Below, in pieces: positions 701 to 24,050 of a DNA stretch of 64,000 nucleotides. The position numbers were made by a program, and so were the translations under genes. Source of the DNA: a virus (lineage: Duplodnaviria; Heunggongvirae; Uroviricota; Caudoviricetes); the IMG/VR virus record IMGVR_UViG_3300043418_000226; one strand, written 5' to 3'. Each line of letters starts with the position of its first letter. Within the stretch, counting starts at the first letter, position 1. A model generated the notes under the pieces. That model was not told the origin of the DNA. It did no database searches and worked only from the letters and a program-made list of their open reading frames with translations.

Positions 701-1171
701 TTATAAAGTGTAAACGTCAAGTTCTAACTCAGTAGTGATTAAATTATTTTCCCCAACATAAACAATAACGTTAACTACGTCACCAACAGTTATTAATCCT
801 TTACCCTCTTCATTACTAATTGATAAGTTATTTTCCCAATCTAATGGTATTGTAACTTCTTTAGTAACTGGATCATCAGAACCTTCGGGATATAATGTCA
901 TTTCCACATCGATAGATTCCGGACCCTTTATACTGTGTAATGAAATATTTTTTATCCCCCAACTTCTATGTTCCTGTTCAATAACATACGTTACATTAAT
1001 CTTTTTTGTCCAACTATCCACATCATCAATCGTCATACTATCGTATCTTTGATTAGAATTTGAACTGAATGATACCGAAATTTCTCTTGAGTAGGTGTTA
1101 TCTTCTTGTTCTAATAATATTGTTTTTTTTACTCTATCTAATTGATTCTCAGTAAGTTTAAATTTTGCCAT
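701..1171 (-). CDS. hypothetical protein with conserved N-terminal leader (MAKFKLTENQLDRVKKTILLEQ)
   Basis: 156-aa ORF; N-terminal ~21 aa match the leader motif shared with four other proteins in this window (leader finding); TAA stop. Confidence 0.6.
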   Translation of the reverse strand: MAKFKLTENQLDRVKKTILLEQEDNTYSREISVSFSSNSNQRYDSMTIDDVDSWTKKINVTYVIEQEHRSWGIKNISLHSIKGPESIDVEMTLYPEGSDDPVTKEVTIPLDWENNLSISNEEGKGLITVGDVVNVIVYVGENNLITTELELDVYTL

Positions 1172-1260
1172 AATACGTAATGTCTGTTAGTTATCTATAA
1201 ATACAGCATAAATATAAATAAAAAATTTGGCGGTGTCAAATAATTGATTATATTTGTGGA

Positions 1261-1500
1261 ATGAAAAAGTTATTATACATCCTTTTGATTGGGGTACCGA
1301 CGTTATTGTTTTCACAAACAAAAAAAACCTTTAAATCCGGTGATGTGGATGAAAAGGTTAATTTTAGATTAGATTCTTTATCTAAAAAATATAAAAAAGA
1401 TGTTTTGAGTTACATAGTAAAAACATCTAATGGTAAAACAATTCGTCAAATTGCGTATATTAAGAAAAACGAACTAATTTACGAAGAACTCGTGAATTAA
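1261..1500 (+). CDS. small secreted protein (signal peptide)
   Basis: 79-aa ORF with N-terminal MKKLLYILLIGVPTLLFSQ signal-like segment. Confidence 0.45.
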   Translation: MKKLLYILLIGVPTLLFSQTKKTFKSGDVDEKVNFRLDSLSKKYKKDVLSYIVKTSNGKTIRQIAYIKKNELIYEELVN

Positions 1501-2567
1501 CATTTCCCAACAATCTGATATCCAGTTTGACCAACTGGCGACATTACAATTACTGAACTGTCGTCAATTGCTTTGTCAAAGTTCAATAATGAACCCCCAC
1601 TAACAATATTATATAAAACAAAAGTTTTTGTTCCTGCGTCTGCCATTTGTTTTAACATGGCAGCACCTTCTGAAACTTCTCTACCCATTCCTTTTAATTG
1701 TTCAGGTGTTGGAACTTTAGTTGGGTCGACTAATATTTTTTTCATTATATCGTCATAACCTTGTGCCTCAATGGTAACTAATTGACCACCAGATACCGAT
1801 GGTGAACCATTTAATTTGGTTAATTGTGCCACATATAATGGTACGTATTTGAATGTTGTGTATTTGTGAGGTGCAGTTGCAACATAACCCGTATCTTTGG
1901 TTATTTGATTTTTAGAGTTAGAAATCACCATTCTATCGGGTATAGTTCCTGTTGCGATGGATAATTGACCCTTACCTTCTAATTTAACGTTTGTGGTAAC
2001 GTAATTGTTTTCAGGTTTACCTTGTTTACCTTCACCATTGATGTTTAATCCACATATGTTATTACCTGCACCCGATTCTCCACCACTTACAACTAATCCA
2101 ATAGTAACATATTGATATTTGGTATATTCAGGATTGTCACTTCCTTTTGTTTGGTCCCACTCAGGTCCTTGTGGTCCTAAATTTTTAATTTGAAGTGTCA
2201 CCTTTTCACCTAATTTACTCTTAATGTAATTTACTGCCGATTGTCCTCGTTTAAGTGATAGTTCTCCTGGTTTTAATCCAACACCCCTATTTGGAACTTT
2301 TGATTCTGAAGACGTTACAACGACATCATACTCCACATTTGGACTTTTTGAAACTATTGAATTAATTTCGTTAATCGCAATATCTATTTGTTCTGTGGTA
2401 GTTAACTGGAACTGTCCACTTTTGAATGAATTCGTTATATTATATTGTTTTATTGGTTTTACCTGAGCAATTGGTTTGGTCGGTGCCGCTGGAGTTACGA
2501 CTTGTTCTTCCAATATTTTGTCAATAACATTTTTAATCTGTATTTCTGTTAAAACGATAGTTCTCAT
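1497..2567 (-). CDS. hypothetical protein (possible virion protein) with N-terminal leader MRTIVLTEIQIKNVIDKILEEQ
   Basis: 356-aa ORF; leader motif ending ILEEQ; Gly/Thr-rich; convergent with the downstream + strand gene. Confidence 0.65.
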   Translation of the reverse strand: MRTIVLTEIQIKNVIDKILEEQVVTPAAPTKPIAQVKPIKQYNITNSFKSGQFQLTTTEQIDIAINEINSIVSKSPNVEYDVVVTSSESKVPNRGVGLKPGELSLKRGQSAVNYIKSKLGEKVTLQIKNLGPQGPEWDQTKGSDNPEYTKYQYVTIGLVVSGGESGAGNNICGLNINGEGKQGKPENNYVTTNVKLEGKGQLSIATGTIPDRMVISNSKNQITKDTGYVATAPHKYTTFKYVPLYVAQLTKLNGSPSVSGGQLVTIEAQGYDDIMKKILVDPTKVPTPEQLKGMGREVSEGAAMLKQMADAGTKTFVLYNIVSGGSLLNFDKAIDDSSVIVMSPVGQTGYQIVGKC

Positions 2568-2646
2568 TATTTCTTTTTTTATAAATATCTAAATAAAGTA
2601 TATCGAATATTTATTGTTAAATAAACTTACAAATTAAATAAAAATT

Positions 2647-3489
2647 ATGTTACTTAAATTAGGATCACAAGGGGAAGACGTAAAAAAACTACAAGTTAAA
2701 TTAGGTGTTGACCCAATTGGTAATTTTGGACCAAAAACGGAAAGTGCAGTTAAAAAATGGCAATTGGATAATGGATTAACTGCCGATGGAATAGTTGGAG
2801 ATGGCACTTGGAGTAAATTGTTTAGTGAGAGTACGGTATCTGCACCGAGAGTTATTACAGAACCCGCACCGGTTTCTACTGTGGGTGGTCTTAAATTAGA
2901 AAAACTAAGAGGTCACATTCCGGATTCCGTTATAGCACAAATTCCAGATACTGCTTCTAAATTCCAAATAAACACACCATTAAGATTGGCACATTTCTTA
3001 GCCCAATGTGGACACGAATCGGGAGGTTTTAGGGCAACCCAAGAAAATTTAAATTATTCAGCAAAAGGGTTGAATGGGATTTTTAAGAAATACTTCCCAA
3101 CTGAATCTGCAGCGACTCCATATGCGAGACAACCTGAGAAAATTGCGTCTAAAGTTTATGCGAATAGAATGGGAAATGGTGCCGAGTCCACAAAAGAAGG
3201 GTATAAATTCAGAGGCCGAGGATATATTCAATTAACCGGAAAAGATAACTATACATTATTCGGTAAATCAATAAATGAAGACATATGTTCGAATCCTGAT
3301 AAAGTTGCCGTTAATTATGCATTATTATCCGCGGCTTGGTTCTTCAATAAAAATGGATTACATAAAATTGCAGATGAGGGGTCGAGTGATGTTGTTGTTA
3401 CAAAAATAACAAAACGTGTAAATGGCGGTACAATTGGGTTACCGGATAGAATAAAACACTTTAAAGAGTATTTTGCATTATTATCATAA
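2647..3489 (+). CDS. endolysin: N-terminal peptidoglycan-binding domain plus GH19 chitinase-like lysozyme domain
   Basis: PG_binding_1-like repeats (LQVKLGV..DGxFGPKT, LTADGIVGDGTW) followed by LAHFLAQCGHESGGF / GRGYIQLTG motifs typical of family 19 phage lysins. Confidence 0.8.
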   Translation: MLLKLGSQGEDVKKLQVKLGVDPIGNFGPKTESAVKKWQLDNGLTADGIVGDGTWSKLFSESTVSAPRVITEPAPVSTVGGLKLEKLRGHIPDSVIAQIPDTASKFQINTPLRLAHFLAQCGHESGGFRATQENLNYSAKGLNGIFKKYFPTESAATPYARQPEKIASKVYANRMGNGAESTKEGYKFRGRGYIQLTGKDNYTLFGKSINEDICSNPDKVAVNYALLSAAWFFNKNGLHKIADEGSSDVVVTKITKRVNGGTIGLPDRIKHFKEYFALLS

Positions 3490-3517
3490 AAAAAGGGAGT
3501 TTATACTCCCTTTTTTA
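3488..3517. terminator. bidirectional intrinsic terminator between convergent genes
   Basis: hairpin GGGAGT-TTAT-ACTCCC flanked by an A-run and a T-run. Confidence 0.6.
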
Positions 3518-5174
3518 TTTCTTTAATATCTGTATCAGTTTCAGGTTCGAAGTCCGTCATCTGTTTTACTTTTTTACCTTCAATGGGTAGTAGTTTTTGA
3601 CTTAATTTTTCTTCCCAAGTTCGTTCACTTACAAAATAGCCTTCAGCCTCACCTCCACCATGTAGCGTTGGGTTGTCAGTTACAACGTAAAATGTTACAT
3701 TATGACTTGAGTGGTAAGGGATAATACTATAATAGGTTCCCTCATCATCTTTTGCCGCTATCATTTTACCTTCACTAAAGGAGTCGTTTAATAATGACCC
3801 GTTTACGGTTACCCAATTAAATTTAGTTATATCGTAGATACCATATTCTTTAGTTCTCTTATTTTGATAAATTCTTATTTTGTTGTTAGTGACGTTAGTT
3901 CTAACAAGTTCATAATCATTTTTCATGAAATCATCCACCAAATAACCAATACCTGATTTACCTAATATTTTTAATTTCCTATCAAGTTTATTAAGATATC
4001 CTGGTGTTGCAATAATCGTATTTAAAAGTTCAGAACTTGAAACCCTTGTAAACGCATCTGCTACCGTCATCATATCGATATATTTAGTTTTCAATTCATT
4101 ACTCATTGATTTCCAAGATTTAACGGTGTTAATTGTACCACCATTATCAATGTATTGTTCTTTAACTTCATCAGTTTGTCTTGCAAATTCATTCGGACTT
4201 CCCAATATTTCATTAATCGTATCAGTAATCGTTGCATTTTCTAATTCTTCATCAGACATTTCGCGATAACTAATAAGGTTTCTATGGTTAGCAAGTTTAG
4301 GATAAATTGCAACAACTTCTTGCCAAGAGTACGTATTATCACCATCATTAAGCATCGACGTAATTCTATATGAACCGCTATCATCTATTTGAAGAGCACT
4401 CATGTAGAATTTACTTTCTTTTGGATCTTCGGATAACGGGTTTCTACTTTCGTCAATTACAAAATAAAATGTTCTTTGATGTCTAGTTCTGTAGTTACCA
4501 TATAGATTACCACCTTGACCATATAGGTAATTTCCATCGGCATCCCGTTCAGTTACATCACTACCTCTCCATGTCACACACCAAGGTGCCGAAACATTTG
4601 TGTGATATTGGGAATTTCTGTTGTATTTTAACCATGCCTGTTTATGGATAGTTTGATAATAGTAACCCATTCTAATTACTTGAGTTTGATTTAGAATTGA
4701 GTACACCCTAAAACCGTCTTCGTTAATGATAGCATTATCAGATTCCCACATTGCCTTCGAGGCCTCAATTTTAGATTCGGTTGGTTGATTACCGTTTTCC
4801 TCAAAAACTTTATTAATATTCACTTTAGGGGCGTCTTCCCCACCGTCAACATCACCACCCATTTTAAAACCACTATATGTTTTTAAAAAGTCTAAAATTT
4901 CTTTAAGGGTAAATTTTGTAATATCCTTTAAGTCATTAATGTTAAATTTTCTAAACCCGTGATTTCCGTCGTGACGAGCCAAAAAAGTAACAACTCCCGG
5001 TCTGTCTTCGGTGATATTAGGTTTTATGACACTATGTTTATTGTAAATTTCTTCACCTTGTTCCGGTGTAAGTTCTGGATATTCTAATCTCCATTTTGTC
5101 ATTAGTGCGTTGAATAAAGTTTTGTTTTTAACTTCTTCTACTAACATATCGTAAACTATATCGTTGATTCTCAT
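3501..5174 (-). CDS. hypothetical protein (557 aa)
   Basis: long uninterrupted ORF, TAA stop; no motif recognised. Confidence 0.7.
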   Translation of the reverse strand: MRINDIVYDMLVEEVKNKTLFNALMTKWRLEYPELTPEQGEEIYNKHSVIKPNITEDRPGVVTFLARHDGNHGFRKFNINDLKDITKFTLKEILDFLKTYSGFKMGGDVDGGEDAPKVNINKVFEENGNQPTESKIEASKAMWESDNAIINEDGFRVYSILNQTQVIRMGYYYQTIHKQAWLKYNRNSQYHTNVSAPWCVTWRGSDVTERDADGNYLYGQGGNLYGNYRTRHQRTFYFVIDESRNPLSEDPKESKFYMSALQIDDSGSYRITSMLNDGDNTYSWQEVVAIYPKLANHRNLISYREMSDEELENATITDTINEILGSPNEFARQTDEVKEQYIDNGGTINTVKSWKSMSNELKTKYIDMMTVADAFTRVSSSELLNTIIATPGYLNKLDRKLKILGKSGIGYLVDDFMKNDYELVRTNVTNNKIRIYQNKRTKEYGIYDITKFNWVTVNGSLLNDSFSEGKMIAAKDDEGTYYSIIPYHSSHNVTFYVVTDNPTLHGGGEAEGYFVSERTWEEKLSQKLLPIEGKKVKQMTDFEPETDTDIKEIKKGV

Positions 5175-5254
5175 AATAAATAAATATACTATAAATATCT
5201 TTATTTTGGTAGATTTACTTATGAGATAAAACTATGTATATTTAAAGAAAAAAG

Positions 5255-5824
5255 ATGTCACAGGAACCACTACTGAAGATAGGTTATTATTCAATATACG
5301 AGATTAGAACCCCTAAAGGTAAAAAATATATGGTGGATAGTGGTAAAACTATTTTCCTTGAAAGATTTAAAAAGTATATAATAAATCCATATCGAGACAC
5401 TAAGGAGTTCATGTCTTTGGATAAGGCTAAAGAATATGTTAAAACAAAACTTTCTAAACGTAAAAAAGATAAAGAGAAGAAATTAAGTAAAATACCGAAG
5501 TCTTTATATCTTGTATTAATAAAGGAGGAGTCGACCGGTATCACTATAGTTAAAGTCGGCATCACCGCTAAAAGATTTATAATGAGACGTTTCAGTAAGG
5601 CATATGGTTATGAAGGATATGTGGTGGAAACAATATTGAGGAGAATTGAAACTCCACATGCTGAGAAATTTGAGAGTGATATTAAATCGATATTAAATAA
5701 AAAAAGGTCCGTAAAAAAATACAGACCTGTTTTAAAATCATTTTCAGGATATTCTGAATGTTTTGATTATTCGTGTTTGGAGGAGATAGTTACTGTTTTT
5801 GACCAAATATCATCCAAAGGTTAA
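5255..5824 (+). CDS. hypothetical protein, possibly T5orf172/GIY-YIG-related domain
   Basis: 189-aa ORF; KIGYYSIYEI and VKVGITAKRF segments weakly resemble the T5orf172 fold; weak call. Confidence 0.4.
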   Translation: MSQEPLLKIGYYSIYEIRTPKGKKYMVDSGKTIFLERFKKYIINPYRDTKEFMSLDKAKEYVKTKLSKRKKDKEKKLSKIPKSLYLVLIKEESTGITIVKVGITAKRFIMRRFSKAYGYEGYVVETILRRIETPHAEKFESDIKSILNKKRSVKKYRPVLKSFSGYSECFDYSCLEEIVTVFDQISSKG

Positions 5825-6213
5825 CTACAAGATGGTCCCCATCCGAATACATCCATCAACTTACCCCATAAGTCACGTCCCATGTAACCAAGTTCGATTA
5901 ATTTTTTTGCCGATTTACAACCAATCATACCATCGGCATCCAAACCATTATTTTGTTGGAAAATTGCCAACGCCGATTTTGATTTATCACCCCATGCACC
6001 GTCTGCACCAATCATGATGATGGGGGCCTTTGGATTTAATGTAAAGTCAGAACCGTTCCACGTTCCTCTTATGTTTTTCTTTTTAAAATAGTCATTAAGT
6101 GCAATTTGCACGTAATGCACATCTTCAGGTGAATCGGTGTCACCATATTGTTCATTAATTTGTTTATCAATGATTTTTTTAATTTGACTTTCTGTAAAAA
6201 TGTATTTTTTCAT
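5821..6213 (-). CDS. peptidoglycan-binding domain protein with N-terminal leader MKKYIFTESQIKKIIDKQINEQ
   Basis: C-terminal DGAWGDKSKSALAIFQQNNGLDADGMIGCKSAKKL matches the PG_binding_1 pattern; leader motif at the N-terminus. Confidence 0.65.
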   Translation of the reverse strand: MKKYIFTESQIKKIIDKQINEQYGDTDSPEDVHYVQIALNDYFKKKNIRGTWNGSDFTLNPKAPIIMIGADGAWGDKSKSALAIFQQNNGLDADGMIGCKSAKKLIELGYMGRDLWGKLMDVFGWGPSCS

Positions 6214-6224
6214 GTTAATAAATA

Positions 6225-6911
6225 TTAGATTTCTTGAATGAAGTTTGAAATGTACCCCGACATTCTTTCCGACCTCATGTTAAATGTGTTTATTTCTTCT
6301 TTTGTAAGGTTTGTCGGATGTAAATAATCAAGCCCAATTGAACCAATTAAAGAATCCGTTGACATATCGAAAATACCTTTAGAAACCGCAGAAACAGTAC
6401 CAACCGATTCAAGGGCCGCTTTTAAACCAAATGTCGAAATTTCGGGATTTGAAATATCGGATATGTAAATTGTGTTACCTATCATTTGTTGTTCAATTGA
6501 ACGACTAAAAAGTGAAACAGGAAGATTATTAAATGTCATACCAATCGATGAAACTCCAAGTCTTGAAACTTCATGCATAACTGAGAATTTTTGAATTGAT
6601 TTATTCGTATGTAGGAAGTGACCTCCGTTATGTATAATTGTTATCCACGCTCTATCTGCGTTAAATTTTTCTCTAATATATTCTAACTCTTCCGTAATAA
6701 TTGCTGACTGTTCTAATTCCTTTTTAACCGGATCGATGACGACCGGTTCCGAATGGTTACCTAATTTTGACTTTACATATTCAACACCCGCAGGTCCTAA
6801 TAAGGCCGTAATTAAAGTAACTATAACTGTTCCGAGTAATTCTATTGTGTGTTGTTCCATAGTATAGTTTATAAATACCTTACCGTTAAATAAAGTAATA
6901 AAAAATATCAC
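6225..6911 (-). CDS. hypothetical protein (228 aa)
   Basis: complete ORF; N-terminal hydrophobic segment. Confidence 0.6.
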   Translation of the reverse strand: MIFFITLFNGKVFINYTMEQHTIELLGTVIVTLITALLGPAGVEYVKSKLGNHSEPVVIDPVKKELEQSAIITEELEYIREKFNADRAWITIIHNGGHFLHTNKSIQKFSVMHEVSRLGVSSIGMTFNNLPVSLFSRSIEQQMIGNTIYISDISNPEISTFGLKAALESVGTVSAVSKGIFDMSTDSLIGSIGLDYLHPTNLTKEEINTFNMRSERMSGYISNFIQEI

Positions 6912-7065
6912 ATCTATACAGTCAAAAACGTAAATAATGTCAGATTTTAAGATTTAAGTTTAAAACATAACGAAAATTATGTGTGATTTTTTTCTAATCT
7001 ATTTTTATTTGTCGACAATTTGTGTTATACTTTCTGAAACAATAAATTTTTTAAACAAAAAAAAC

Positions 7066-9612
7066 ATGAAAAAAACAAGTATTATGACAATTGTGTTAAT
7101 GTTACTATCGGTAGTATCATTTGCACAAATTAAGGGTCGAGTCATCGATCAAACAACTAAAGAAACCTTACCGGGTGTTAACATTATAACAACTAAAGGT
7201 GGGGTTACCACTGGTCTTGATGGTACGTTTACATTAAAAACCTCAAAATCGGGCGATAATTTAAAGGTTTCATATGTTGGATATAAAACAATCGATGTTA
7301 CCGCAAAGAATGACATTCTAATTGAAATGTTACCAACATCAACTGGTTTAAAAGAAGTCGTGGTCATGTCGTCATACGGTATTGATAGAAAGACCCCTGC
7401 AGCGATATCGTCAATTTCTACGAAGTTTGCAATTGAGAATTTAGGTTCACAAGAATTACCTGAATTATTAAAAATAACCCCGTCAGCGTTTATTACAAAA
7501 AGTGGTGGTGGATATGGGGATTCTCGTATTAACATTAGAGGATTTGATAATAAAAATATCGCGGTGTTAATCAATGGAGTACCTGTAAACGACATGGAAA
7601 GTGGTACAGTATACTTTTCAAATTGGGCAGGTATTGGAAATTCATTAAAACAAATGCAAGTTCAGAGAGGTCTTGGAGCATCTAAATTGGCTATCCAATC
7701 AGTTGGGGGTACGATGAATATTATTACTAAAACTACCGACATCGAAAAAGGTGGTTCAATTGAACAATCGACAACAGATTACGGACTCTCTAAAACAGTT
7801 TTATCGTTATCAACTGGTAACACTAAAAAGGGAGCATTAAGTTTTGTTGGTTCAGCAACTCAAGGTAATGGTTATATTGAGGGTACTAACACTAAAGCCT
7901 TTTCATATTTCTTATCATACTCTAAGGATTTCGGCACTAAACATAAAATTCAATTTACCGCAATTGGTGCACCTCAAGAACATGGACAAAGAACAACTCG
8001 TTTGACACCCGCAGAGTATACTCAATATGGTTTAAAATATAATAAAGATATCTACACAGTTAACGGTGAACAACATAACATTGCAACTAACTATTATCAT
8101 AAACCTATTTTTAGTTTAAATCATTATTGGACTATTTCACCTAAAACAACTTTAACCACATCAGCATATGGTTCGATTGGTCATGGTGGTGGTAGTGGTG
8201 CCATCGGTTCATATGCCACGGGTACTTTAAGAGATGCGGACGGACATTTAATTTTAGATAACCAAGTTACTATCAACGCAACATCGACTACCGGTTCAAA
8301 ATATGGTATCCGTAATTCAATTAATAATCACACATGGTACGGAGTATTATCGACATTAAATCATGATTTAACTGAAAATTTAAACTTAACTGTAGGTGTA
8401 GATGCTAGATCATATAAGGGAACTCACTTCCGTGAAATGAGAGATTTAATTGGTGGTTCATACTATAAAGATTTGTTTAACACACACGCAACTGTCGATG
8501 CAAATGCGAGTGATTATATTAACGTAACTAAAATTACACCTGCGGATAATAGAGTGGCTTATGACAATGATGGTTTAGTTAATTACGGAGGAACATTCGG
8601 ACAATTGGAATACTCTAAAGATAAATTATCTGCGTTTATTCAAGGAGCAATTTCTCAAACTCAATATCAAAGAGCTGATAGATACTACACAAATCAAGTA
8701 GAACATTTATCTGAAAAAGTTAACATCACAGGATATAACTACAAAGGAGGATTCAACTATAATATTGACAATAGTAATAACGTTTTTGTTAATGCCGGTC
8801 AATATAGTAGAGCACCTTATTTTTCGTTTATTTTTAATGGAGCGTCACCATCGTCGGCAACTGCGATTAATAGTGGTAATACCGTAAACACTAACATTAA
8901 AAACGAAGAAGCAACGGCATATGAAGTTGGTTATGGTTTTAGAAGTAGAGCGTTCCGTTTTAAGGTAAACGCATATTACACAGATTTTGCCAATCGTTCA
9001 TTAACGTCTCCATTATTAACAAATGCTGATGGTACTCAATACAGAGCATTAATAACCGGACAAGGAGCGTTACATAAAGGTATTGAATTAGAAGCGGCAT
9101 TTAAAGTTACTACTGATTTAGACATCAACGGATTTGCATCTTTTGGTGATTGGAAATGGAAAGGGAACGCTTCGGCAATTATCAGAGACGAAATTAAAAA
9201 TACAGACGTAAAAACATCGATATATTCCGACGGTTTATATGTTGGAGATCAACCTCAAACACAAGTAGGTGCGTACGTTAGATATCAAATTACAAAAGGA
9301 CTAGACGTTTCAGGAACGTATACGTTTAATGATAAATATTACGCATACTACGACCCCACATCTAGAACAACGTCAACTGTTACTGCACAACCATACAAAT
9401 TAGATGCGTTTGGTGTAACGGATGCGCGTGTTGGATATAAATTTAAAATTGGTAAGTATGAGACATATGCACAATATCAGGTTTATAATTTATTTAACGA
9501 AGATTATTGGGTAGAGGCTAACGATGCCGGTGGAACCGCAGTCGGAACATTAGGTTCAGGTTTCAAGGGTTGGGGTAGAAACTCTAACTTTAGTTTGAAG
9601 ATTAATTTCTAA
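7066..9612 (+). CDS. TonB-dependent outer-membrane receptor (CarboxypepD_reg + plug + beta-barrel; SusC/RagA-like)
   Basis: signal peptide MKKTSIMTIVLMLLSVVSFAQ; KGRVID..LPGVNI N-terminal domain; plug-like SSYGIDRKTPAAIS; many predicted beta strands; C-terminal aromatic residue (F); start moved to the ATG at 7066 in the tracked frame. Confidence 0.8.
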   Translation: MKKTSIMTIVLMLLSVVSFAQIKGRVIDQTTKETLPGVNIITTKGGVTTGLDGTFTLKTSKSGDNLKVSYVGYKTIDVTAKNDILIEMLPTSTGLKEVVVMSSYGIDRKTPAAISSISTKFAIENLGSQELPELLKITPSAFITKSGGGYGDSRINIRGFDNKNIAVLINGVPVNDMESGTVYFSNWAGIGNSLKQMQVQRGLGASKLAIQSVGGTMNIITKTTDIEKGGSIEQSTTDYGLSKTVLSLSTGNTKKGALSFVGSATQGNGYIEGTNTKAFSYFLSYSKDFGTKHKIQFTAIGAPQEHGQRTTRLTPAEYTQYGLKYNKDIYTVNGEQHNIATNYYHKPIFSLNHYWTISPKTTLTTSAYGSIGHGGGSGAIGSYATGTLRDADGHLILDNQVTINATSTTGSKYGIRNSINNHTWYGVLSTLNHDLTENLNLTVGVDARSYKGTHFREMRDLIGGSYYKDLFNTHATVDANASDYINVTKITPADNRVAYDNDGLVNYGGTFGQLEYSKDKLSAFIQGAISQTQYQRADRYYTNQVEHLSEKVNITGYNYKGGFNYNIDNSNNVFVNAGQYSRAPYFSFIFNGASPSSATAINSGNTVNTNIKNEEATAYEVGYGFRSRAFRFKVNAYYTDFANRSLTSPLLTNADGTQYRALITGQGALHKGIELEAAFKVTTDLDINGFASFGDWKWKGNASAIIRDEIKNTDVKTSIYSDGLYVGDQPQTQVGAYVRYQITKGLDVSGTYTFNDKYYAYYDPTSRTTSTVTAQPYKLDAFGVTDARVGYKFKIGKYETYAQYQVYNLFNEDYWVEANDAGGTAVGTLGSGFKGWGRNSNFSLKINF

Positions 9613-9629
9613 AAAAGTTGAATAATAAT

Positions 9630-9663
9630 TAAAGGGAGATTTTACAGTCTCCCTTTTTTTTTG
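9630..9663 (+). terminator. intrinsic terminator
   Basis: GGGAGAT-TTTACAG-TCTCCC hairpin followed by a T9 run. Confidence 0.65.
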
Positions 9664-9674
9664 TATATTATAGT

Positions 9675-10229
9675 ATGAGTTTAATTATTAATTTCTTTGG
9701 TGGTCCAGGTATTGGTAAGTCCACACAATCGGCAGGTTTATTTACTAAAATGAAAAAGTCACACATGGATGTGGAATTAACGTATGAATTCCCAAAAATT
9801 GTTGCATGGGAAGAAAACTATTCAGCAATTAAGGACCAATTCTATATTACCGCGAATCAACATAGGAACATAAGTAGATTGTATAATAAGGTGAAATATA
9901 TAATTGTTGATTCTCCAATTATATTAGGTATGGTTTATAAAGATAGGTACAGTCTTGAACCAGAGTATCCTGCAATGTTTTATGATGAAACATTTGACAC
10001 TTTTGTTGTGACACTATTTAAGAAGTACGATAGTCTTAATATACTATTAACCAGAAACGATGCAACATATGATGAGAACGGTAGGTTCCAAAATTTACAA
10101 GAATCTAAAAAAATTGATGAAGACATTAAACAAAAACTTATCACTCACGATATACCTTTTGTTGAATTTAACGTTCATAATAATACTGCTTCGGATATAT
10201 TTAATTATATAAAACAAAACAATTTATGA
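9675..10229 (+). CDS. P-loop NTPase, putative nucleoside/nucleotide kinase
   Basis: Walker A GGPGIGKST at the N-terminus; 184 aa; TGA stop overlaps the next start (ATGA). Confidence 0.6.
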   Translation: MSLIINFFGGPGIGKSTQSAGLFTKMKKSHMDVELTYEFPKIVAWEENYSAIKDQFYITANQHRNISRLYNKVKYIIVDSPIILGMVYKDRYSLEPEYPAMFYDETFDTFVVTLFKKYDSLNILLTRNDATYDENGRFQNLQESKKIDEDIKQKLITHDIPFVEFNVHNNTASDIFNYIKQNNL

Positions 10230-10861
10230 AAAAATTATTAATGATGTCCGTTATTATACTAATTAGTATAACGTCAAACGGTCAAGATATCGTTGTCTTA
10301 AAACATACGAATTACACTTCAAATTATAGTAAAACAAAATTATATCCAGTGATGGTTGAGTGGTGGATTACTAAAGAAAAAATAGGTTGTCCCACTCCAA
10401 TGAAAAGGAAAGATAACTTTAAACCTGATGTGCAATTGAAGGAATTTACCGATATTGCATCAGATTACGTCAATAGTGGTTTAGATAGAGGACATATGAT
10501 GCCAGCTGCTGAGAATCTTTGTCAAACATCTGAAATTCAAGACGAATGTTTTTATTTTTCTAATATGGCAGCACAATACCATAGTTTAAATGCTGGTGAT
10601 TGGAAATCGTTAGAAACATTGGAAAGACAAATCTCAATGGAAAAAGATTCGGTACACGTATGGTGTGGTAATGTTGGTGAATTAAAAAAAGTTGGAAGAG
10701 TGTCGGTACCTAAAACATGTTGGAAGGTGGTATATATTTCTAAAACAAAAGAATTTATGTCATATATTTTCGAAAATACTCCTGACAAACCGACAGGATT
10801 AAATTCACATAAAGTTGAATTAATTGATATTGAAAAATTAACAGGATTAAAATTTAAATAA
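10226..10861 (+). CDS. secreted DNA/RNA non-specific endonuclease (Serratia NucA/ββα-Me family)
   Basis: signal peptide; DRGHMMPAAE matches the DRGH catalytic motif of Endonuclease_NS. Confidence 0.75.
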   Translation: MKKLLMMSVIILISITSNGQDIVVLKHTNYTSNYSKTKLYPVMVEWWITKEKIGCPTPMKRKDNFKPDVQLKEFTDIASDYVNSGLDRGHMMPAAENLCQTSEIQDECFYFSNMAAQYHSLNAGDWKSLETLERQISMEKDSVHVWCGNVGELKKVGRVSVPKTCWKVVYISKTKEFMSYIFENTPDKPTGLNSHKVELIDIEKLTGLKFK

Positions 10862-11070
10862 TGTTTGCGAGAGACTTTGTAAATTACGAAGATAAATTAT
10901 ACTGGATTTATCGAAAGGTAAGGAAATCGGACGTTAAAGAAGGAATGATTACCGAATTAAAAGATTTTTGGTTTTGTGATATTGTTATAAAAAATAGAAA
11001 CGACCAAGACGAATTTTTATTTTTTATGAGAGAATGTACTGAGGCTGAAATTATTACAGAACCTTCTTGA
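10861..11070 (+). CDS. hypothetical small protein
   Basis: 69-aa ORF with start coupled to the upstream stop (TAATG). Confidence 0.35.
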   Translation: MFARDFVNYEDKLYWIYRKVRKSDVKEGMITELKDFWFCDIVIKNRNDQDEFLFFMRECTEAEIITEPS

Positions 11071-11452
11071 TAAATTTTATACATTCACTTGTATATTTTA
11101 TTTCATTGCGTTTTGCTTGTCTTTCATATGGGTGAGTTGAATATGAATAGGTATTAAAATACTCCCAATATTTCTTCATTGATTGTAAATAGTGGGAGTA
11201 TTCGTGTATTATAGTGGAGACAACATCTTCTAACGTTTTACAATTAATATTATAGAGAACAATTCGATTTTCTTCCGAGTAATAACTACCCATAGTAAAT
11301 TGTTCGGTTTCGTCTTTTCTAAAATAGACCCTAACTGACATCTTTGGTTGACATTTTCTTCGGTTATTTATCCCCATATTTTCCCTACACCACCTCATTG
11401 CCACAATAGCATACCGTCTTTTTAATTCAATATCGACAATTTTTTTAGTCAT
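11054..11452 (-). CDS. hypothetical protein with HExxH (IIHEYSHYLQ) zinc-metallopeptidase-like motif
   Basis: 132-aa ORF; single HExxH motif. Confidence 0.5.
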   Translation of the reverse strand: MTKKIVDIELKRRYAIVAMRWCRENMGINNRRKCQPKMSVRVYFRKDETEQFTMGSYYSEENRIVLYNINCKTLEDVVSTIIHEYSHYLQSMKKYWEYFNTYSYSTHPYERQAKRNEIKYTSECIKFIKKVL

Positions 11453-11804
11453 TATTGTTTTTATCGGTTTTTATCGTTCTAGTTGTTTTTTTAATCGGTT
11501 TGGTAAATTCGTTAATTGCCTCAAAGTTATTGGAAATGTCCTTTAAAATTGCCGCAAATTCGTAATTTTCCGATTCCTCATTTTTTTTCCATAAAACCAC
11601 AATAAAACTAATTAATTCTTCATCAGTTAGATTTACACTAACCCTAATTGAATTTTTCATCAATTTAAAGACCATGTAGATTAAACTTGTTTTTTTTTCC
11701 TGGGGAAGGGTAAAGTAGTTCTCAACGGATACGTTGGATAGAATTGTCTCGGTAACATTTTCTAAAAATGAAATAAAAGACGGATGATTTACGTTTACTT
11801 TCAT
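11445..11804 (-). CDS. hypothetical protein
   Basis: 119-aa ORF overlapping the downstream start by 8 nt. Confidence 0.5.
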   Translation of the reverse strand: MKVNVNHPSFISFLENVTETILSNVSVENYFTLPQEKKTSLIYMVFKLMKNSIRVSVNLTDEELISFIVVLWKKNEESENYEFAAILKDISNNFEAINEFTKPIKKTTRTIKTDKNNND

Positions 11805-11903
11805 GTTCTTTTCGTTTTTAATAAATAGTTTAAGGTACGATATTGAAACAAAAAAAAGGGAATAAATAATCTTTATTCCCCATTTATATAGTTATCCTAT
11901 TGA

Positions 11904-12263
11904 TTATTTAGCCCATTTACCTCTAATAACAATCTGTGCGATAATGTTATATACCGATAAATCTTGATATGTGTCTTCTACTGCTTCACCAACGGTATCA
12001 GGGTTACCTAATAACACCAATTGCTTCAATCTCTGAATCTTATCGTTCATTCTAAACCAAAGTCCTGTCTGAGATAATTTAAGTTCTTCGGGTGTCTCTA
12101 AACGAGTTCCTACGGATATGTTATCCGGTCCGTAGTTCATCTGTTTTCTACAGAAGATTTCATACTGTTCTTTTAGGATTTTTTTAAATTCTCTTGTGGT
12201 TTCAGGATATTTATCCTCACACATTTTAACCGGGTCAATTGATTGGTCTTTATTTTCTGTCAT
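11904..12263 (-). CDS. hypothetical protein (possibly DUF1599-like)
   Basis: 119-aa ORF; GLWFRMNDKIQRL segment; weak. Confidence 0.5.
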   Translation of the reverse strand: MTENKDQSIDPVKMCEDKYPETTREFKKILKEQYEIFCRKQMNYGPDNISVGTRLETPEELKLSQTGLWFRMNDKIQRLKQLVLLGNPDTVGEAVEDTYQDLSVYNIIAQIVIRGKWAK

Positions 12264-13628: not shown

Positions 13629-13706
13629 AAGTTTTAATTTTACTCATCAAAGATATATAATAAATTTTAATAAACCAAATCTAAGATAGTATGTATTTAT
13701 ATTAGT

Positions 13707-14036
13707 ATGGAAAGTAACATTATCTCCGAAAATCTAATCAAAAAAGAATTAGAAAAAATATTAATCGAACAGGCGTCAAAGGTGTCTAGACAAGATTTTA
13801 GTCGAGTTCAATTTAAAATTGACGAATTACAAAATTCTTTAAATGAAACAGTAAAAGAATTGAGGAAATTAAATGAATCGATTCCTGGTGGTCTTAAAAC
13901 TGTTACTAATGGTAGAATTAATGGAATATCCCTATCTTTATCAAATGCACAAAAATTGGTGACTCAATTAAAAGATAAAGTAAAACAATATAAAAAATCT
14001 ATCTATAGTCAACAAATAGAAGAAAAGAAAAAGTAG
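13707..14036 (+). CDS. hypothetical coiled-coil protein with N-terminal leader-like MESNIISENLIKKELEKILIEQ
   Basis: 109-aa ORF ending in TAG; leader motif variant. Confidence 0.55.
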   Translation: MESNIISENLIKKELEKILIEQASKVSRQDFSRVQFKIDELQNSLNETVKELRKLNESIPGGLKTVTNGRINGISLSLSNAQKLVTQLKDKVKQYKKSIYSQQIEEKKK

Positions 14037-21629: not shown

Positions 21630-21660
21630 AAAAACCTCCCAAATTAGGAGGTTTTTTTAT
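21630..21660 (+). terminator. intrinsic terminator
   Basis: CCTCCC-AAATTA-GGAGGT hairpin plus T7. Confidence 0.6.
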
Positions 21661-21792
21661 TGTCTTTTTCTTCGGGTTTTTGTAAACCTTTTTTCGTTTC
21701 GGCGGTTTTTAAATTATAATCTTTAGTTGCGGTTTTGTGCTTCTCAAGGATTCTCTTTTTTTCCTCTTCCGACATTTTTAATATACTCATAA

Positions 21793-22740: not shown

Positions 22741-22752
22741 TATTTAAACTAT

Positions 22753-23121
22753 ATGGCATTTTTAACCGACGAACAAAAAGATAAACTTAACAAATTTGTA
22801 AAATTTGTTAAAAAACAATTGGAACTTGAGTCAGTTCCCACTATATCCATTCAAAATAACAGAGACGGTCTTAAAACTACTGCAAACTATGATTACACTA
22901 AAGATGTTAAAGTTATTAAAGTTAATGCTAGAAACCGCGCGTTAGTTGATGTGATGAGGAGTATTGCACATGAGATGGTACATCACAAACAATTTGAACA
23001 GGGTCGTTTAAACGGACCAAAACCACCGGATATTGGTGGCGAAATAGAAGATGAAGCAAACGCAAAGGCCGGACAATACATTAAAATGTTTTCAAGAATC
23101 GACCCATCTATTTACGATTAA
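22753..23121 (+). CDS. HExxH zinc-metallopeptidase-like protein (SprT-like?)
   Basis: SIAHEMVHHKQ motif. Confidence 0.55.
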   Translation: MAFLTDEQKDKLNKFVKFVKKQLELESVPTISIQNNRDGLKTTANYDYTKDVKVIKVNARNRALVDVMRSIAHEMVHHKQFEQGRLNGPKPPDIGGEIEDEANAKAGQYIKMFSRIDPSIYD

Positions 23122-23697
23122 CTACCTCATAAATCTTAAAACAACCTTAATATCAACAGCTTTGGACCTTGTTCCGTCAGATAGATATAAATCAGTACTA
23201 ATAATTGGACTAACAAGAGTTAGTACATTAGGTGGCATGACACCGATTGCGTTTGATTCGTAAGTGTAAGTTGTTGAACCACCATTCGTTTGATTTATTA
23301 CATTTAATAAATTCCTATTCTCATTGACATTTACCCAAAATGGGTCGTGTGTTGGTCTAAGTGAACCGTTTATGTTAGTAAAATCACAATATAGATAACG
23401 ATTGTTATCATCAAACTCCCATACTGTTTTATTTCTAACGAATCTCCTATCTAAAGCGGTAACATTAAAATTCTGTTTCATTAGAATGTGTCCACTAACA
23501 AATGATTGATTGTTAAATGAATTAATACAAATTGTATCATTTTTAACAATCGAAATATTGGAAATCGAACTAATAACAACAATATCATAATCCGTAAAAA
23601 TCCATTTTCCTCCAGTAAATCTTGGAACACTTACCTCATCATATTTTTCACATCCCATTAATAGGGGTAGAAACAACAGAACTATTAACTTTTTCAT
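23122..23697 (-). CDS. lipoprotein
   Basis: MKKLIVLLFLPLLMGC signal peptide with lipobox; ends in TAG. Confidence 0.6.
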   Translation of the reverse strand: MKKLIVLLFLPLLMGCEKYDEVSVPRFTGGKWIFTDYDIVVISSISNISIVKNDTICINSFNNQSFVSGHILMKQNFNVTALDRRFVRNKTVWEFDDNNRYLYCDFTNINGSLRPTHDPFWVNVNENRNLLNVINQTNGGSTTYTYESNAIGVMPPNVLTLVSPIISTDLYLSDGTRSKAVDIKVVLRFMR

Positions 23698-23786
23698 GTT
23701 ATTATAGGTTTATAATTTTGACAAAAATACGTATTTTTTAATATAAAAAAACAAAATTCAAAGATTTTTTTTTGTATTTATAAAGT

Positions 23787-24050
23787 ATGAGATTAGTTAT
23801 ATCAGAAAAACAATTACAGTTATTACTTTCAAAACAAAATAATAACCAAGAAATAGAAGAACAAGACGCTGCAGATGCTGAACCGTCGGCAGGTACGTCA
23901 TCAAACCAATCAGGGGGAGAAGGTTATCCTGAAGTGGGTAAATGGGAAAGTGGTATTGAGAGGGGACCCGCTAATCAAGTAGGCGTGACTAAATGGTCAG
24001 ACGTGGTTGGAAGTAAATTACAAAGAGGTAAATCAAATCCTATCAAATAA
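23787..24050 (+). CDS. hypothetical protein with leader-like N-terminus MRLVISEKQLQLLLSKQNNNQE
   Basis: 87-aa ORF. Confidence 0.45.
   Translation: MRLVISEKQLQLLLSKQNNNQEIEEQDAADAEPSAGTSSNQSGGEGYPEVGKWESGIERGPANQVGVTKWSDVVGSKLQRGKSNPIK

What the first reader, a model, noticed from the sequence alone, without database searches (positions are those of the whole stretch)
701..24050. Shared ~21-aa N-terminal leader ending (L/I)-x-E-Q in at least five proteins: candidate prohead-protease propeptide or capsid-targeting signal
Five N-termini are clearly related though the proteins are otherwise unrelated. They are MAKFKLTENQLDRVKKTILLEQ (701-1171), MRTIVLTEIQIKNVIDKILEEQ (1497-2567), MKKYIFTESQIKKIIDKQINEQ (5821-6213), MESNIISENLIKKELEKILIEQ (13707-14036) and MRLVISEKQLQLLLSKQNNNQE (23787-24050). 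An internal copy (FTDKQLNTLSERVLGEQ) occurs in the protein at 59544-60335. The conserved end ...(I/L)-x-E followed by Q matches the T4 gp21-type prohead protease cleavage rule (L/I-x-E, cut after E). That fits capsid-targeting sequences of internal head proteins. One carrier is a peptidoglycan-binding protein, which would fit an ejected cell-wall-binding protein packaged in the head.
Basis: partly seen in the sequence, partly recalled or inferred. Interest (0 to 1): 0.7.

Follow-up and report, generated by a model that had tools for sequence, protein, structure and literature searches.

The report
Shared cleavable leader on phage proteins
Several unrelated proteins of an uncultured ~319-kb freshwater phage begin with the same ~22-residue helix ending in (I/L/V)-x-Glu-Gln, most likely a capsid-targeting tag removed by the phage's T4-type head protease, and it marks a large, unreported set of mostly cell-wall-directed cargo proteins.

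Summary
All six peptides exist as described. Four N-termini (genes 701, 1497, 5821, 13707) are related in register. They hold 4 of the window's 10 [LI]xEQ motifs, all starting at residue 19. The fifth (23787) shows the same layout once its 387 homologues are aligned. The internal copy (59544) is conserved in its orthologues.

The window belongs to the freshwater 'bS21 phages', about 300-kb T4-like myoviruses predicted to infect Bacteroidetes. A Peptidase_S77 (T4 gp21) prohead protease lies 3 kb past the window end. The clade's capsid protein carries an invariant ...YLINE|A site.

Orthologues of the 1497 protein carry either this leader ('type A') or a second one ('type B', ..EEKNRILNLHESATKxQYLxE|Q). 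Type B heads 1,512 protein clusters, almost always at residue 1, and is absent from 185,579 cellular genomes.

The few cargo proteins with a recognisable domain are nearly all peptidoglycan-directed: OmpA-like, PG_binding, LysM, YkuD, Tlde1, TseH.

A cultured relative, Flavobacterium phage immuto, has its own shared leaders, most of which contain an (L/I)-x-E.

Best reading: a T4 capsid-targeting-sequence-like propeptide, a new variant of a known kind. Cleavage and packaging are inferred, not shown.

The parts
1106..1171 (-). Type A leader (MAKFKLTENQLDRVKKTILLEQ) of gene 701-1171. The body is an unannotated 134-aa protein.
   Evidence: The sequence is as stated. LLEQ starts at residue 19. The loci-trained HMM gives 12.8 bits, E = 1e-3. 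It shares 9 of 21 residues in register with 1497. The gene is absent from the syntenic position in L165, so it is an accessory insertion.
2502..2567 (-). Type A leader (MRTIVLTEIQIKNVIDKILEEQ) of gene 1497-2567. The body is an OmpA-like peptidoglycan-binding domain plus a second beta-rich domain.
   Evidence: The protein has 97 homologues that carry either a type A or a type B leader. In the AlphaFold model, residues 8-21 form a helix, 22-35 are disordered and the domains after that are well folded, with mean pLDDT 86. Foldseek matches OmpA, PorE, OprF, MotB, Pal and TagL.
6148..6213 (-). Type A leader (MKKYIFTESQIKKIIDKQINEQ) of gene 5821-6213. The body carries a PG_binding_1 domain.
   Evidence: Pfam PF01471 hits at E = 3.8e-6. 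The HMM built from orthologues of the 1497 protein gives 29.2 bits, E = 5e-8. The positional counterparts in L003, L005 and L076/L077 keep the leader on diverged bodies: PG_binding_1, weak LysM, or unannotated.
13707..13772 (+). Divergent type A leader (MESNIISENLIKKELEKILIEQ) of gene 13707-14036. The body is a coiled-coil protein.
   Evidence: LIEQ starts at residue 19. It shares 8 of 21 residues in register with both 1497 and 5821. GTATTTATA lies 5 nt upstream. No HMM recovers it.
23787..23864 (+). Type A-like leader, 26 aa including an insertion (MRLVISEKQLQLLLSKQNNNQEIEEQ), of the conserved 87-aa core gene 23787-24050.
   Evidence: The protein has 387 homologues. Their alignment conserves the ISEKQLKLIL core and the (I/L/V)xEQ end, while the spacer between them and the linker after them vary. 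GTATTTATA lies 4 nt upstream.
59604..59660 (+). Internal leader-like segment (VKFTDKQLNTLSERVLGEQ, residues 21-39) of the head-module gene 59544-60335.
   Evidence: The segment is conserved at the same position in orthologues from L116, L124, L132, L145 and L157. It scores 25.1 bits. LGEQ starts at residue 36.
21644..21790 (-). 48-aa mini-ORF that carries only a type-B-like leader (MSEEEKKRILEKHKTATKDYNL...).
   Evidence: The type B HMM gives 24.9 bits, E = 1.2e-5. This shows that both leader classes occur in this genome.
1196..1204 (-). GTATTTATA upstream motif of gene 701. Further copies lie at 13693-13701 (+) and 23774-23782 (+). The shorter TATTTATA lies at 2580-2587 (-), upstream of gene 1497.
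   Evidence: The motif occurs 9 times against 2.3 expected. It also precedes the genes for TerL, portal, the 58161 protein, the protease and the scaffold. TATTTATA lies within 45 nt upstream of 45 of 91 leader genes and of 27% of other genes.
61725..63497 (+). Large terminase. It marks the start of the T4-type head module, which runs on past the window end to the portal, bS21, the S77 protease, the scaffold and the capsid protein.
   Evidence: The protein hits phrog_2 at E = 3.6e-39. The gene order in L001 and L094 shows the rest of the module.
63551..64000 (+). Portal gene (Portal_T4), cut off by the window end. The S77 protease lies about 2.9 kb further on, at L001 8622-9305.

Best explanation
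The leader is a capsid-targeting propeptide of the T4 'CTS' kind.

Proposed mechanism:
1. Late in infection the leader-bearing genes are expressed together with the head genes.
2. The N-terminal amphipathic helix, held on a disordered linker, binds the scaffolding core of the assembling prohead and so carries the attached cargo inside.
3. The S77 (gp21-type) prohead protease then cuts after the Glu of the conserved (I/L/V)-x-E|Q.
4. The leader is discarded. The mature cargo stays in the head and leaves through the tail at the next infection.

The phage clade uses at least two interchangeable leader classes. Type A is about 22 aa. Type B is about 30 aa and contains both L-H-E and YL..E.

What is shown and what is inferred:
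- Shown: the leaders are homologous, modular, strictly N-terminal and specific to phages.
- Shown: they end in a gp21-type motif.
- Shown: the genome has a gp21-type protease and a T4-type head module.
- Inferred: binding to the core, cleavage, packaging and ejection.
For: 1. Protease. L001 is 100% identical to window 58242-64000 and encodes, in order, portal, a 246-aa protein, bS21, a 141-aa protein and a 227-aa Peptidase_S77. That protease matches T4 gp21 (PDB 5JBL) at E = 5.7e-13, and ELNHP and GISSRG are present. It is 37-43% identical to the gp21 of cyanophages and KVP40.
2. Cleavage rule. T4 gp21 cuts after L/I-X-E (PMC9026906). Of 40 unique type A leaders, 38 have [LIVM]xE at their end and 30 have hxEQ starting at residues 19-21. 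All 39 type B leaders have the invariant L-H-E, and most also end in YL..E.
3. Capsid protein site. The clade's capsid protein has an invariant ...ENQAS(Y/F/H)LINE|A followed by variable residues, upstream of the region that aligns with mature T4 gp23*. Some type B leaders end literally in YLINEQ. The scaffold protein starts M(T/S)EK(S/T)ILEQ|A.
4. Modularity. The OmpA-like protein family carries either type A or type B. In the fetched loci the leaders head 17 BLAST-level body clusters. Type B heads 1,512 clusters at 50% identity. In almost all of the top 150 the match starts within the first 13 residues (one starts at residue 32). Tandem B+A leaders occur in P0317 and P0333.
5. Structure. The leader is a helix at residues 8-21, followed by a disordered linker at 22-35, ahead of the folded cargo.
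6. Precedent. T4 IPI, IPII and IPIII are unrelated proteins that share only a CTS ending in I-x-E|A.
7. Cultured relative. Flavobacterium phage immuto also has an S77 protease and has three leader families of its own. Two of them end in (L/I)-x-E. Two small proteins whose N-termini resemble these leaders by eye (gp069, gp072) are encoded inside its head module.
8. Expression. The upstream motif is shared with the terminase, portal, protease and scaffold genes.
9. Further cargo. Just outside the window, the same genome has a weakly GNAT-like protein with a leader, reminiscent of the packaged T4 enzyme Alt.
Against: - There is no proteomic or biochemical evidence. The clade is uncultured.
- The leader has no detectable sequence similarity to the T4 CTS (MKTYQEFIAE) and is two to three times longer.
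- A conserved Gln at P1' is not part of the T4 rule.
- Some leaders lack a strict L/I at P3: YLTLEQ, and V or M at P3.
- (L/I)xE is a short motif, expected by chance in roughly 20% of windows of this size (my estimate from composition, not from a tool result).
- The cargo is mainly peptidoglycan-binding or -modifying and would act in the periplasm, whereas T4 internal proteins enter the cytoplasm.
- Leader genes flank the endolysin gene in the window and sit beside baseplate-hub genes in L094. Both positions fit the rival explanations. T4 ipII and ipIII also adjoin the endolysin gene e.
Confidence: 0.58

Rival explanations
1. The leader is a virion-loading signal for the tail or baseplate rather than for the capsid. 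The helix would dock cell-wall-active cargo onto the baseplate hub or inside the tail tube, as T6SS effectors are loaded onto Hcp or VgrG, for delivery into the periplasm on contraction. The leader would not need to be cleaved.
For: The annotated cargo includes T6SS-effector-type domains (Tlde1, TseH, YkuD) and peptidoglycan anchors (OmpA-like, PG_binding). One leader family, cluster 1, lies next to a gene I read as a gp5/VgrG-like hub, on the basis of a sequence motif only, since Pfam found nothing (L094 16102-19555). The periplasm is the natural site of action for such cargo.
Against: This reading gives no reason for the strongly conserved (I/L/V)-x-E-Q boundary or for its resemblance to the capsid protein site YLINE|A. 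In immuto, leader-like small proteins are encoded inside the head module, not the tail module. I know of no precedent for a 22-aa N-terminal tail-loading tag in phages.
Confidence: 0.15
2. The leader serves a role at lysis or in the infected cell's envelope. The cationic amphipathic helix would bind the membrane or a holin, so that proteins with no signal peptide reach the peptidoglycan at the end of infection.
For: In the window the leader genes flank the GH19 endolysin (2647-3489) and follow a membrane protein (6225-6860). This arrangement is conserved in L003, L005, L076 and L077. The cargo is cell-wall-directed. Late expression fits equally well.
Against: The endolysin itself has no leader. 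In the type B loci the GH19 endolysin was not found near the leader genes. Type B leaders are not cationic: the consensus has net charge 0. Non-wall cargo also exists: a weakly GNAT-like protein, coiled-coil proteins, and a core 87-aa protein. T4 IP genes also adjoin the endolysin gene. The hydrophobic moment is modest, 0.13-0.31.
Confidence: 0.1
3. There is no common function. The resemblance would be a generic helix N-cap (h-T/S-E-x-Q-h) plus an amphipathic helix, together with A-rich start regions favoured for translation in Bacteroidetes.
For: The leave-one-out HMM recovers only 2 of the 6 seeds. The iterated HMM drifts onto an HNH/HTH endonuclease family. There are weak hits to the LTXXQ proteins Spy and CpxP. 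MKK starts are common in the window.
Against: The [LI]xEQ motif is fixed at one position. The four N-termini form a clique in the in-register test. The cross-family HMM hit has E = 5e-8. Leaders are swapped between orthologues. Type B scores 60-88 bits on 420 or more clusters.
Confidence: 0.04
4. The leader is a host-recognised secretion leader, for example a double-glycine bacteriocin-type leader processed by a C39 peptidase ABC exporter. The first 16 residues resemble, from my own knowledge, the pediocin leader MKKIEKLTEKEMANIIGG.
For: The only support is that superficial resemblance: an N-terminal amphipathic helix with L-T/S-E-x-x-L-x-x-I.
Against: No Gly-Gly, Gly-Ala or Gly-Ser occurs at the boundary. 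No NCBIfam leader model hits even at E <= 1. The type B core occurs only once in 185,579 species genomes, and that hit is a 2.5-kb phage fragment binned into a MAG.
Confidence: 0.02

Closest known systems
T4 capsid targeting sequence (CTS) of internal proteins IPI, IPII and IPIII (and the Alt propeptide), removed by the prohead protease gp21
   Same: A short N-terminal tag is shared by otherwise unrelated proteins and ends in (L/I)-x-E. The genome encodes an S77 protease within a T4-type head module (TerL, Portal_T4, protease, scaffold, gp23-like capsid protein). The cargo genes are variable accessory genes. Some of them sit next to the endolysin gene, as ipII and ipIII do in T4.
   Different: There is no sequence similarity to MKTYQEFIAE. 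The leader is 22-33 aa instead of 10-19 aa, and it is a predicted helix on a disordered linker. Gln, not Ala, follows the Glu. At least two or three leader classes coexist and are swapped between orthologues. The cargo is mainly peptidoglycan-directed rather than anti-restriction. Nothing has been shown experimentally.
Propeptides of head and ejection proteins of the giant phages phiKZ, 201phi2-1 and SPN3US, cut by gp175/gp245-type proteases
   Same: These are large phages in which many head proteins are processed after Glu at a minimal motif, by a homologue of gp21. Their propeptides can hold several cleavage sites (PMC9026906). Compare the L-H-E plus YL..E of type B and the tandem B+A leaders.
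   Different: The motif in those phages is S/A-X-E. As far as I know their propeptides are not a single conserved, portable sequence shared between unrelated proteins. The head module here is much closer to that of T4.
Head-packaged ejection proteins with cell-wall activity (T7 gp16 transglycosylase domain; P22 gp7/16/20 periplasmic conduit)
   Same: These are proteins carried in the capsid that act in, or span, the periplasm at infection (PMC8402733 abstract; the T7 gp16 example rests on general knowledge).
   Different: Those phages are podoviruses, and their ejection proteins have no shared cleavable leader and no S77 protease. No T4-like myovirus is known to package peptidoglycan-binding proteins in its head.
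Double-glycine (bacteriocin-type) leader peptides
   Same: Both are N-terminal amphipathic helices of 15-25 aa with a similar hydrophobic spacing.
   Different: There is no Gly-Gly cleavage site, no model hit and no occurrence in cellular genomes.

Membership tests
T4-type capsid-targeting propeptide (gp21/S77 substrate) | The genome encodes a Peptidase_S77 (gp21-type) prohead protease | tested here: met
   L001 8622-9305 lies on a contig 100% identical to window 58242-64000. The product hits PF03420 and PDB 5JBL at E = 5.7e-13, with His (ELNHP) and Ser (GISSRG) present at the aligned positions.
T4-type capsid-targeting propeptide (gp21/S77 substrate) | The tag is at the extreme N-terminus of otherwise unrelated proteins | tested here: met
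   There are 17 body clusters in the fetched loci. Type B starts within the first 13 residues in almost all of the top 150 of 1,512 clusters, with one at residue 32. One internal copy (59544) is an exception.
T4-type capsid-targeting propeptide (gp21/S77 substrate) | The tag ends in the gp21 cleavage motif (L/I)-x-E | tested here: met
   All six window copies end in [LI]xEQ. Of 40 type A leaders, 38 have [LIVM]xE and 30 have strict [LI]xE. All 39 type B leaders have L-H-E. A minority have V, M or T at P3.
T4-type capsid-targeting propeptide (gp21/S77 substrate) | Sequence homology to the T4 CTS (MKTYQEFIAE / MKTFKEF...ITE) | tested here: not met
   Direct comparison with ipI, ipII and ipIII taken from NC_000866 shows only the shared MK start and the terminal I-x-E. 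The relation is one of function or analogy, not detectable homology.
T4-type capsid-targeting propeptide (gp21/S77 substrate) | The tag is removed by the protease, and the mature protein is present inside capsids | not testable with these tools
   This needs virion proteomics or in vitro cleavage. The phage collection holds no isolate of this clade.
T4-type capsid-targeting propeptide (gp21/S77 substrate) | Late expression together with the head genes | tested here: inconclusive
   The (G)TATTTATA motif is shared with the TerL, portal, protease and scaffold genes. It precedes 45 of 91 leader genes against 27% of other genes. The motif's function is not established.
Double-glycine bacteriocin-type leader | A Gly-Gly/Ala/Ser cleavage site, and recognition by cellular C39 exporters (so presence on cellular proteins) | tested here: not met
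   No Gly occurs at the boundary. No NCBIfam hit appears at E <= 1. There is one hit in 185,579 genomes, and it is a phage fragment.
Sec/lipoprotein signal peptide | A hydrophobic core of 10 or more residues after a basic N-region | tested here: not met
   The leaders are amphipathic and charged throughout. True signal peptides in the same window (for example 1261, 42708, 44372) form a separate cluster in the N-terminal comparison.
LTXXQ (CpxP/Spy) family | A match to the family model above its cut-off | tested here: not met
   Only the 48-aa type-B-like ORF gives a weak hit: 18.5 bits against a cut-off of 174.

The most novel reading that the evidence does not exclude
T4-like jumbo phages of Bacteroidetes use a family of portable, interchangeable leader peptides to load a very large and fast-evolving arsenal of cell-wall-binding and cell-wall-modifying proteins into the virion. 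This arsenal includes domains otherwise known as T6SS effectors (Tlde1, TseH, YkuD). The proteins would be delivered into the periplasm of the next host at infection. That would make the phage an effector-injecting machine, with a sequence code that allows the injected proteome to be read directly from metagenomes.
Probability: 0.3. Interest if true: 0.8.

Novelty: new variant of a known kind. Interest (0 to 1): 0.66.

Why it matters
If the leader is a capsid-targeting propeptide, three things follow.
- It gives a sequence-only way to list the packaged or ejected proteins of an abundant, uncultured clade of roughly 300-kb freshwater phages, and of related cultured Flavobacterium phages. At present that needs virion proteomics.
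- The scale is far beyond the three or four CTS proteins of T4: 1,512 clusters for one leader class.
- The dominance of peptidoglycan-directed cargo would point to an unrecognised step of infection, either anchoring to or remodelling the wall from the periplasmic side.

Portable leaders would also be candidate tags for packaging foreign proteins into phages of Bacteroidetes, as the T4 CTS is used in E. coli.

The paper that describes this clade (PMC9723584) does not mention the leaders. None of the 21 papers in the library that use the term 'capsid targeting sequence' appears, from title and abstract, to concern uncultured or Bacteroidetes phages.

Tried and rejected
- A megablast of the head region against 50,697 phage records found no match. 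A tblastn of the 1497 protein against the same records also found none. No isolate of this clade is held.
- Single-protein scans of IMG/VR with the 1497 and 701 proteins found nothing. Only the alignment-based scan worked.
- A BLAST of the fetched loci found no orthologues of 701, 13707, 23787 or 59544.
- The leave-one-out HMM built from the six seeds was too weak to decide anything. I replaced it with orthologue-trained HMMs, the position test and the in-register identity test.
The 43-aa version returned only proteins of 75 aa or less, so it could not serve as a census. The census came from the representatives search.
- Pfam and PHROGs gave nothing for most cargo bodies.
- The iterated type A HMM drifted onto an HNH/HTH endonuclease family, which I excluded (cluster 2).
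- The double-glycine leader and the Spy/CpxP LTXXQ family were considered and rejected.
- Read-through of the TAG stop of gene 13707 by the phage's CTA-anticodon tRNA would add only 6 residues.
- I could not test whether leader class co-varies with the scaffold or protease, because no fetched contig holds both regions.
- Type A could not be given a database-wide census. The single representatives job went to type B, which carries more information.

Full report
WHAT THE WINDOW IS

The window is 32% G+C. It holds 25 standard tRNA genes, a tRNA with a CTA anticodon and a tmRNA. It also holds a GH19/PG_binding endolysin, a ClpB-like ATPase, a large terminase and the start of a T4-type portal.

Two public contigs overlap the window at 100% identity.
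- L163 comes from a 318,764-bp JGI contig and covers window 1-12567.
- L001 covers window 58242-64000 and runs 3.8 kb past the window end.

The gene order beyond the window is portal, a 246-aa protein, ribosomal protein bS21 on the reverse strand, a 141-aa protein, a Peptidase_S77 protease, an acidic scaffold protein and a gp23-like capsid protein.

This is the signature of the 'bS21-encoding phages' of Chen et al. 2022 (PMC9723584). Those phages are 293-331 kb with 31-34% G+C. They come from freshwater lakes, are predicted to infect Bacteroidetes and are inferred to be myoviruses. The paper does not mention N-terminal leaders, peptidoglycan or propeptides.

The nearest isolates share only about 28% terminase identity. 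They are Microcystis phage Mel-JY01 and Flavobacterium phage immuto.

THE OBSERVATION

All six peptides are present as described.

A leave-one-out HMM built from the six seeds recognises only 5821 and 1497. I therefore used tests that do not depend on the seeds.

1. An HMM made only from the N-termini of orthologues of the 1497 protein in other phages hits the unrelated 5821 protein at 29.2 bits, E = 5e-8. The next best hit in the six-frame translation scores 6.9 bits.
2. An HMM iterated on 160 related IMG/VR loci, with no window sequence in it, scores 5821 at 33.9 bits, the 59544 internal copy at 25.1, 1497 at 24.5 and 701 at 12.8 (E = 1e-3). The best background score is 6.3.
3. In the 90 non-overlapping ORFs of the window, [LI]xEQ occurs only 10 times. 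Four occurrences start exactly at residue 19 (701, 1497, 5821, 13707), one at residue 23 (23787) and one at residue 36 (59544). About 0.05 are expected at any one position.
4. In an all-against-all, in-register comparison of residues 2-22, the six pairs among 701, 1497, 5821 and 13707 share 6-10 identities. The only other pairs with 8 or more identities are signal peptides.
5. Gene 23787 fails the HMMs. Its family of 387 homologues conserves MKLxISEKQLKLIL, then a variable 5-8 residues, then (I/L/V)xEQ, then a variable linker and a conserved body. This is the same layout with an insertion.

The internal copy in 59544 is conserved at the same position in its orthologues.

Conservation acts on the peptide rather than the DNA. 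The 1497 and 5821 leaders are 46/66 identical in nucleotides and 11/22 in residues.

One caveat remains: h-T/S-E-x-Q-h is a generic helix N-cap, and loose profiles drift onto unrelated helices, such as the HNH/HTH family.

WHAT ELSE TURNED UP

The 1497 protein has 97 homologues. Their bodies align throughout, but their N-termini fall into two classes.
- Type A is the window's leader, MKTIILTExQVKNVIxxxLxEQ.
- Type B is unrelated: MIKQTWNISEEEKNRILNLHESATKNQYLIxEQ.

Both classes are followed by a variable linker.

In the related loci each class heads several unrelated proteins, and both classes occur in the same genomes. The window itself has a 48-aa ORF at 21644-21790 (-) with a type-B-like leader, scoring 24.9 bits. 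A third class, MKKEILSEELNAMKYLLGYKRGVVISEQ, was seen in L030-L034.

Ten kilobases beyond the window start, the same genome has two more leader genes. One of them is weakly GNAT-like.

A profile of type B was searched against 1.84 billion cluster representatives.
- It finds 1,512 proteins at E <= 0.001 and 420 at E <= 1e-10.
- In almost all of the best 150 the match starts within the first 13 residues (one starts at residue 32).
- Those proteins are 32-472 aa long and fall into 38 BLAST-level body groups.
- Two proteins carry a type B leader followed by a type A-like segment.

The type B core was found only once in 185,579 species-representative cellular genomes. That single hit is a 2.5-kb fragment of this same phage locus binned into a MAG.

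THE CARGO

The AlphaFold model of the 1497 protein has mean pLDDT 86. It shows a detached helix at residues 8-21 and a disordered stretch at 22-35. After that come an OmpA-like domain and a second beta-rich domain. Foldseek matches the OmpA-like domain to OmpA, PorE, OprF, MotB, Pal and TagL.

The 5821 protein has a PG_binding_1 domain.

In the related loci the cargo includes another OmpA-family protein, PG_binding_1, a weak LysM and a TseH-like protein. It also includes a membrane protein rich in Gly and Ala.

Of 113 type B proteins scanned, few have any Pfam hit. The hits are PG_binding_1 (5 proteins) and DUF6861 (2), plus single hits to PG_binding_3, OmpA, YkuD, Tlde1, TseH, Annexin and New_glue.

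The annotatable cargo is therefore overwhelmingly directed at peptidoglycan. None of these proteins has a signal peptide.

MECHANISM

Evidence in favour:
- The protease is present and is a clear gp21 homologue. It matches PDB 5JBL at E = 5.7e-13, and His and Ser are present at the aligned ELNHP and GISSRG positions.
- T4 gp21 cuts after L/I-X-E. The first 10 residues of IPIII suffice for packaging. The T-even internal proteins share only this CTS (PMC9026906 and PMC3012670). Read directly from the T4 record, ipII and ipIII begin MKTYQEFIAE|A, and ipI reads MKTFKEF...STITE|A.
- Here, 38 of 40 unique type A leaders end in [LIVM]xE, and 30 of them have hxEQ starting at residues 19-21. Every type B leader has the invariant L-H-E, and most also end in YL..E.
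- The clade's capsid protein has an invariant ...ENQAS(Y/F/H)LINE|A followed by variable residues. This lies just upstream of the segment that aligns with mature T4 gp23*. Several type B leaders end in the same YLINE.
- The scaffold protein begins M(T/S)EK(S/T)ILEQ|A.
- The sequence diverges sharply right after the Glu-Gln, and the model is disordered there. This is what a cleavage site at a module boundary looks like.
- Many leader genes carry the (G)TATTTATA motif that also precedes the terminase, portal, protease and scaffold genes.

The cultured Flavobacterium phage immuto also has an S77 protease and a T4-type head module. It lacks types A and B but has its own shared leaders.
- MENFDLKKFLVENKLTxNSKLLxE| is found on four proteins.
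- MKKSQLRxIIKEEL is found on three proteins.
- MKKQILSEQFxRMQxLAGIITE|S is found on two proteins.
- Two small proteins encoded between the portal and capsid genes have N-termini that resemble these leaders by eye: gp072 (MKKSQIVKAVQEVLEEM) and gp069 (MENNFDIHKWQAKFLKESTIQEQ). T4 has its prohead-core genes 67 and 68 in that position.

The phenomenon is therefore general among T4-like phages of Flavobacteria, and it can be tested in culture.

WHAT REMAINS INFERRED, AND THE RIVALS

Binding to the prohead core, cleavage, packaging and ejection have not been observed. I see four rivals.

1. Loading through the tail or baseplate. The peptidoglycan-directed cargo would act in the periplasm, whereas T4 internal proteins enter the cytoplasm. 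The cargo includes T6SS-effector-type domains. One leader family lies beside a gene I read as a gp5-like hub, from a sequence motif only. This is a serious rival, at about 0.15. It does not explain the conserved protease-type boundary or the head-module position of the immuto leader genes.
2. A role at lysis or in the cell envelope, at about 0.1. The flanking endolysin suggests it, and that arrangement is conserved in L003, L005, L076 and L077. However, the endolysin itself has no leader, and the adjacency is absent from the type B loci. Type B is not cationic. T4 ipII and ipIII also sit next to the endolysin gene e.
3. Pure chance or a generic helix. This is excluded.
4. A host secretion leader of the double-glycine type. 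This is excluded by the boundary sequence, by the absence of model hits and by the absence from cellular genomes.

COMPARISON AND NOVELTY

The system works like the T4 CTS with gp21. It meets that system's structural criteria: the protease, an N-terminal portable tag, and an (L/I)-x-E end. It shows no sequence homology to the T4 CTS.

It also differs in several respects.
- The leader is 22-33 aa long.
- It is a helix held on a linker.
- Gln sits at P1'.
- Several interchangeable classes exist.
- There are hundreds of cargo families.
- The cargo is centred on the cell wall.

I file it as a new variant of a known kind. I found no report of it in the searchable literature.

I score interest at 0.66. 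The idea is not surprising to a T4 specialist. The scale and the cargo are unexpected, and the leader offers a sequence-only read-out of the packaged proteome of an abundant uncultured phage group. A cultured relative exists in which the hypothesis can be tested directly.

Noticed in passing
window 61713-61721, 63539-63547, 58119-58127, 13693-13701, 23774-23782 (+); 1196-1204, 6870-6878, 54258-54266 (-); also L001 upstream of 8622 and 9391: GTATTTATA occurs 9 times against 2.3 expected and lies 3-34 nt upstream of the start codons of structural or late genes. In four genes only 3-5 nt separate it from the ATG. This implies either leaderless mRNAs or a translation signal rather than a classical -10 element. 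It may bear on the proposal that the phage bS21 selects late phage transcripts (PMC9723584).
   Followed up: partly
window 30846-30919 (-), 27271-27679 (-), and 29579-41824: The phage encodes a tRNA with a CTA (amber-reading) anticodon, a tmRNA and 25 further tRNAs. TAG ends only 4 of 78 ORFs, one of them the leader gene 13707. Read-through there would add only 6 residues.
   Followed up: partly
window 6979-9612 (+): This is a phage-encoded TonB-dependent receptor / SusC-like outer-membrane protein (CarbopepD_reg_2, Plug and TonB_dep_Rec_b-barrel, by the precomputed Pfam hits on L163). It is an unusual auxiliary gene for a phage.
   Followed up: no
L001 7861-8052 (-), about 2.1 kb beyond the window end: A ribosomal protein bS21 gene lies on the reverse strand between the portal and the protease. 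It identifies the clade described by Chen et al. 2022.
   Followed up: yes
window 59544-59603 (+): The first 20 residues of the 59544 protein (MNRTELVEKLLKEGFSEKTL) look like a helix-extended-helix (SAP/HeH-like) motif ahead of the leader-like segment. This N-terminus is conserved in the orthologues.
   Followed up: no
L039 2157-2843, L053 2482-3168, L070 2749-3429 and others: In many type B loci an HNH endonuclease with an N-terminal HTH is inserted immediately upstream of the OmpA-like leader gene. Its N-terminus (MKKIIPTEEELKNILKMYNEDLLGS) mimics the type A leader and contaminated the iterated HMM.
   Followed up: partly
P0317 and P0333: These proteins carry a type B leader followed directly by a type A-like segment (…YLSE|QQTT.YIIQLTESDLKKTINKVLLRED…). 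The leader modules can therefore be concatenated.
   Followed up: no
window 54890-56902 (-): This is a 670-aa ClpB/ClpA-like AAA+ ATPase (phrog_4871, E = 4e-243) encoded just upstream of the head module.
   Followed up: no
L166-L169 (Flavobacterium phage immuto, NC_055915), e.g. record 1803, 103806, 117631, 118632; 102294, 102880, 113188; 25061, 111675: This cultured T4-like phage has three leader families of its own that are shared by unrelated proteins. gp077 is annotated as a cob(I)alamin adenosyltransferase and carries one of these leaders.
   Followed up: partly
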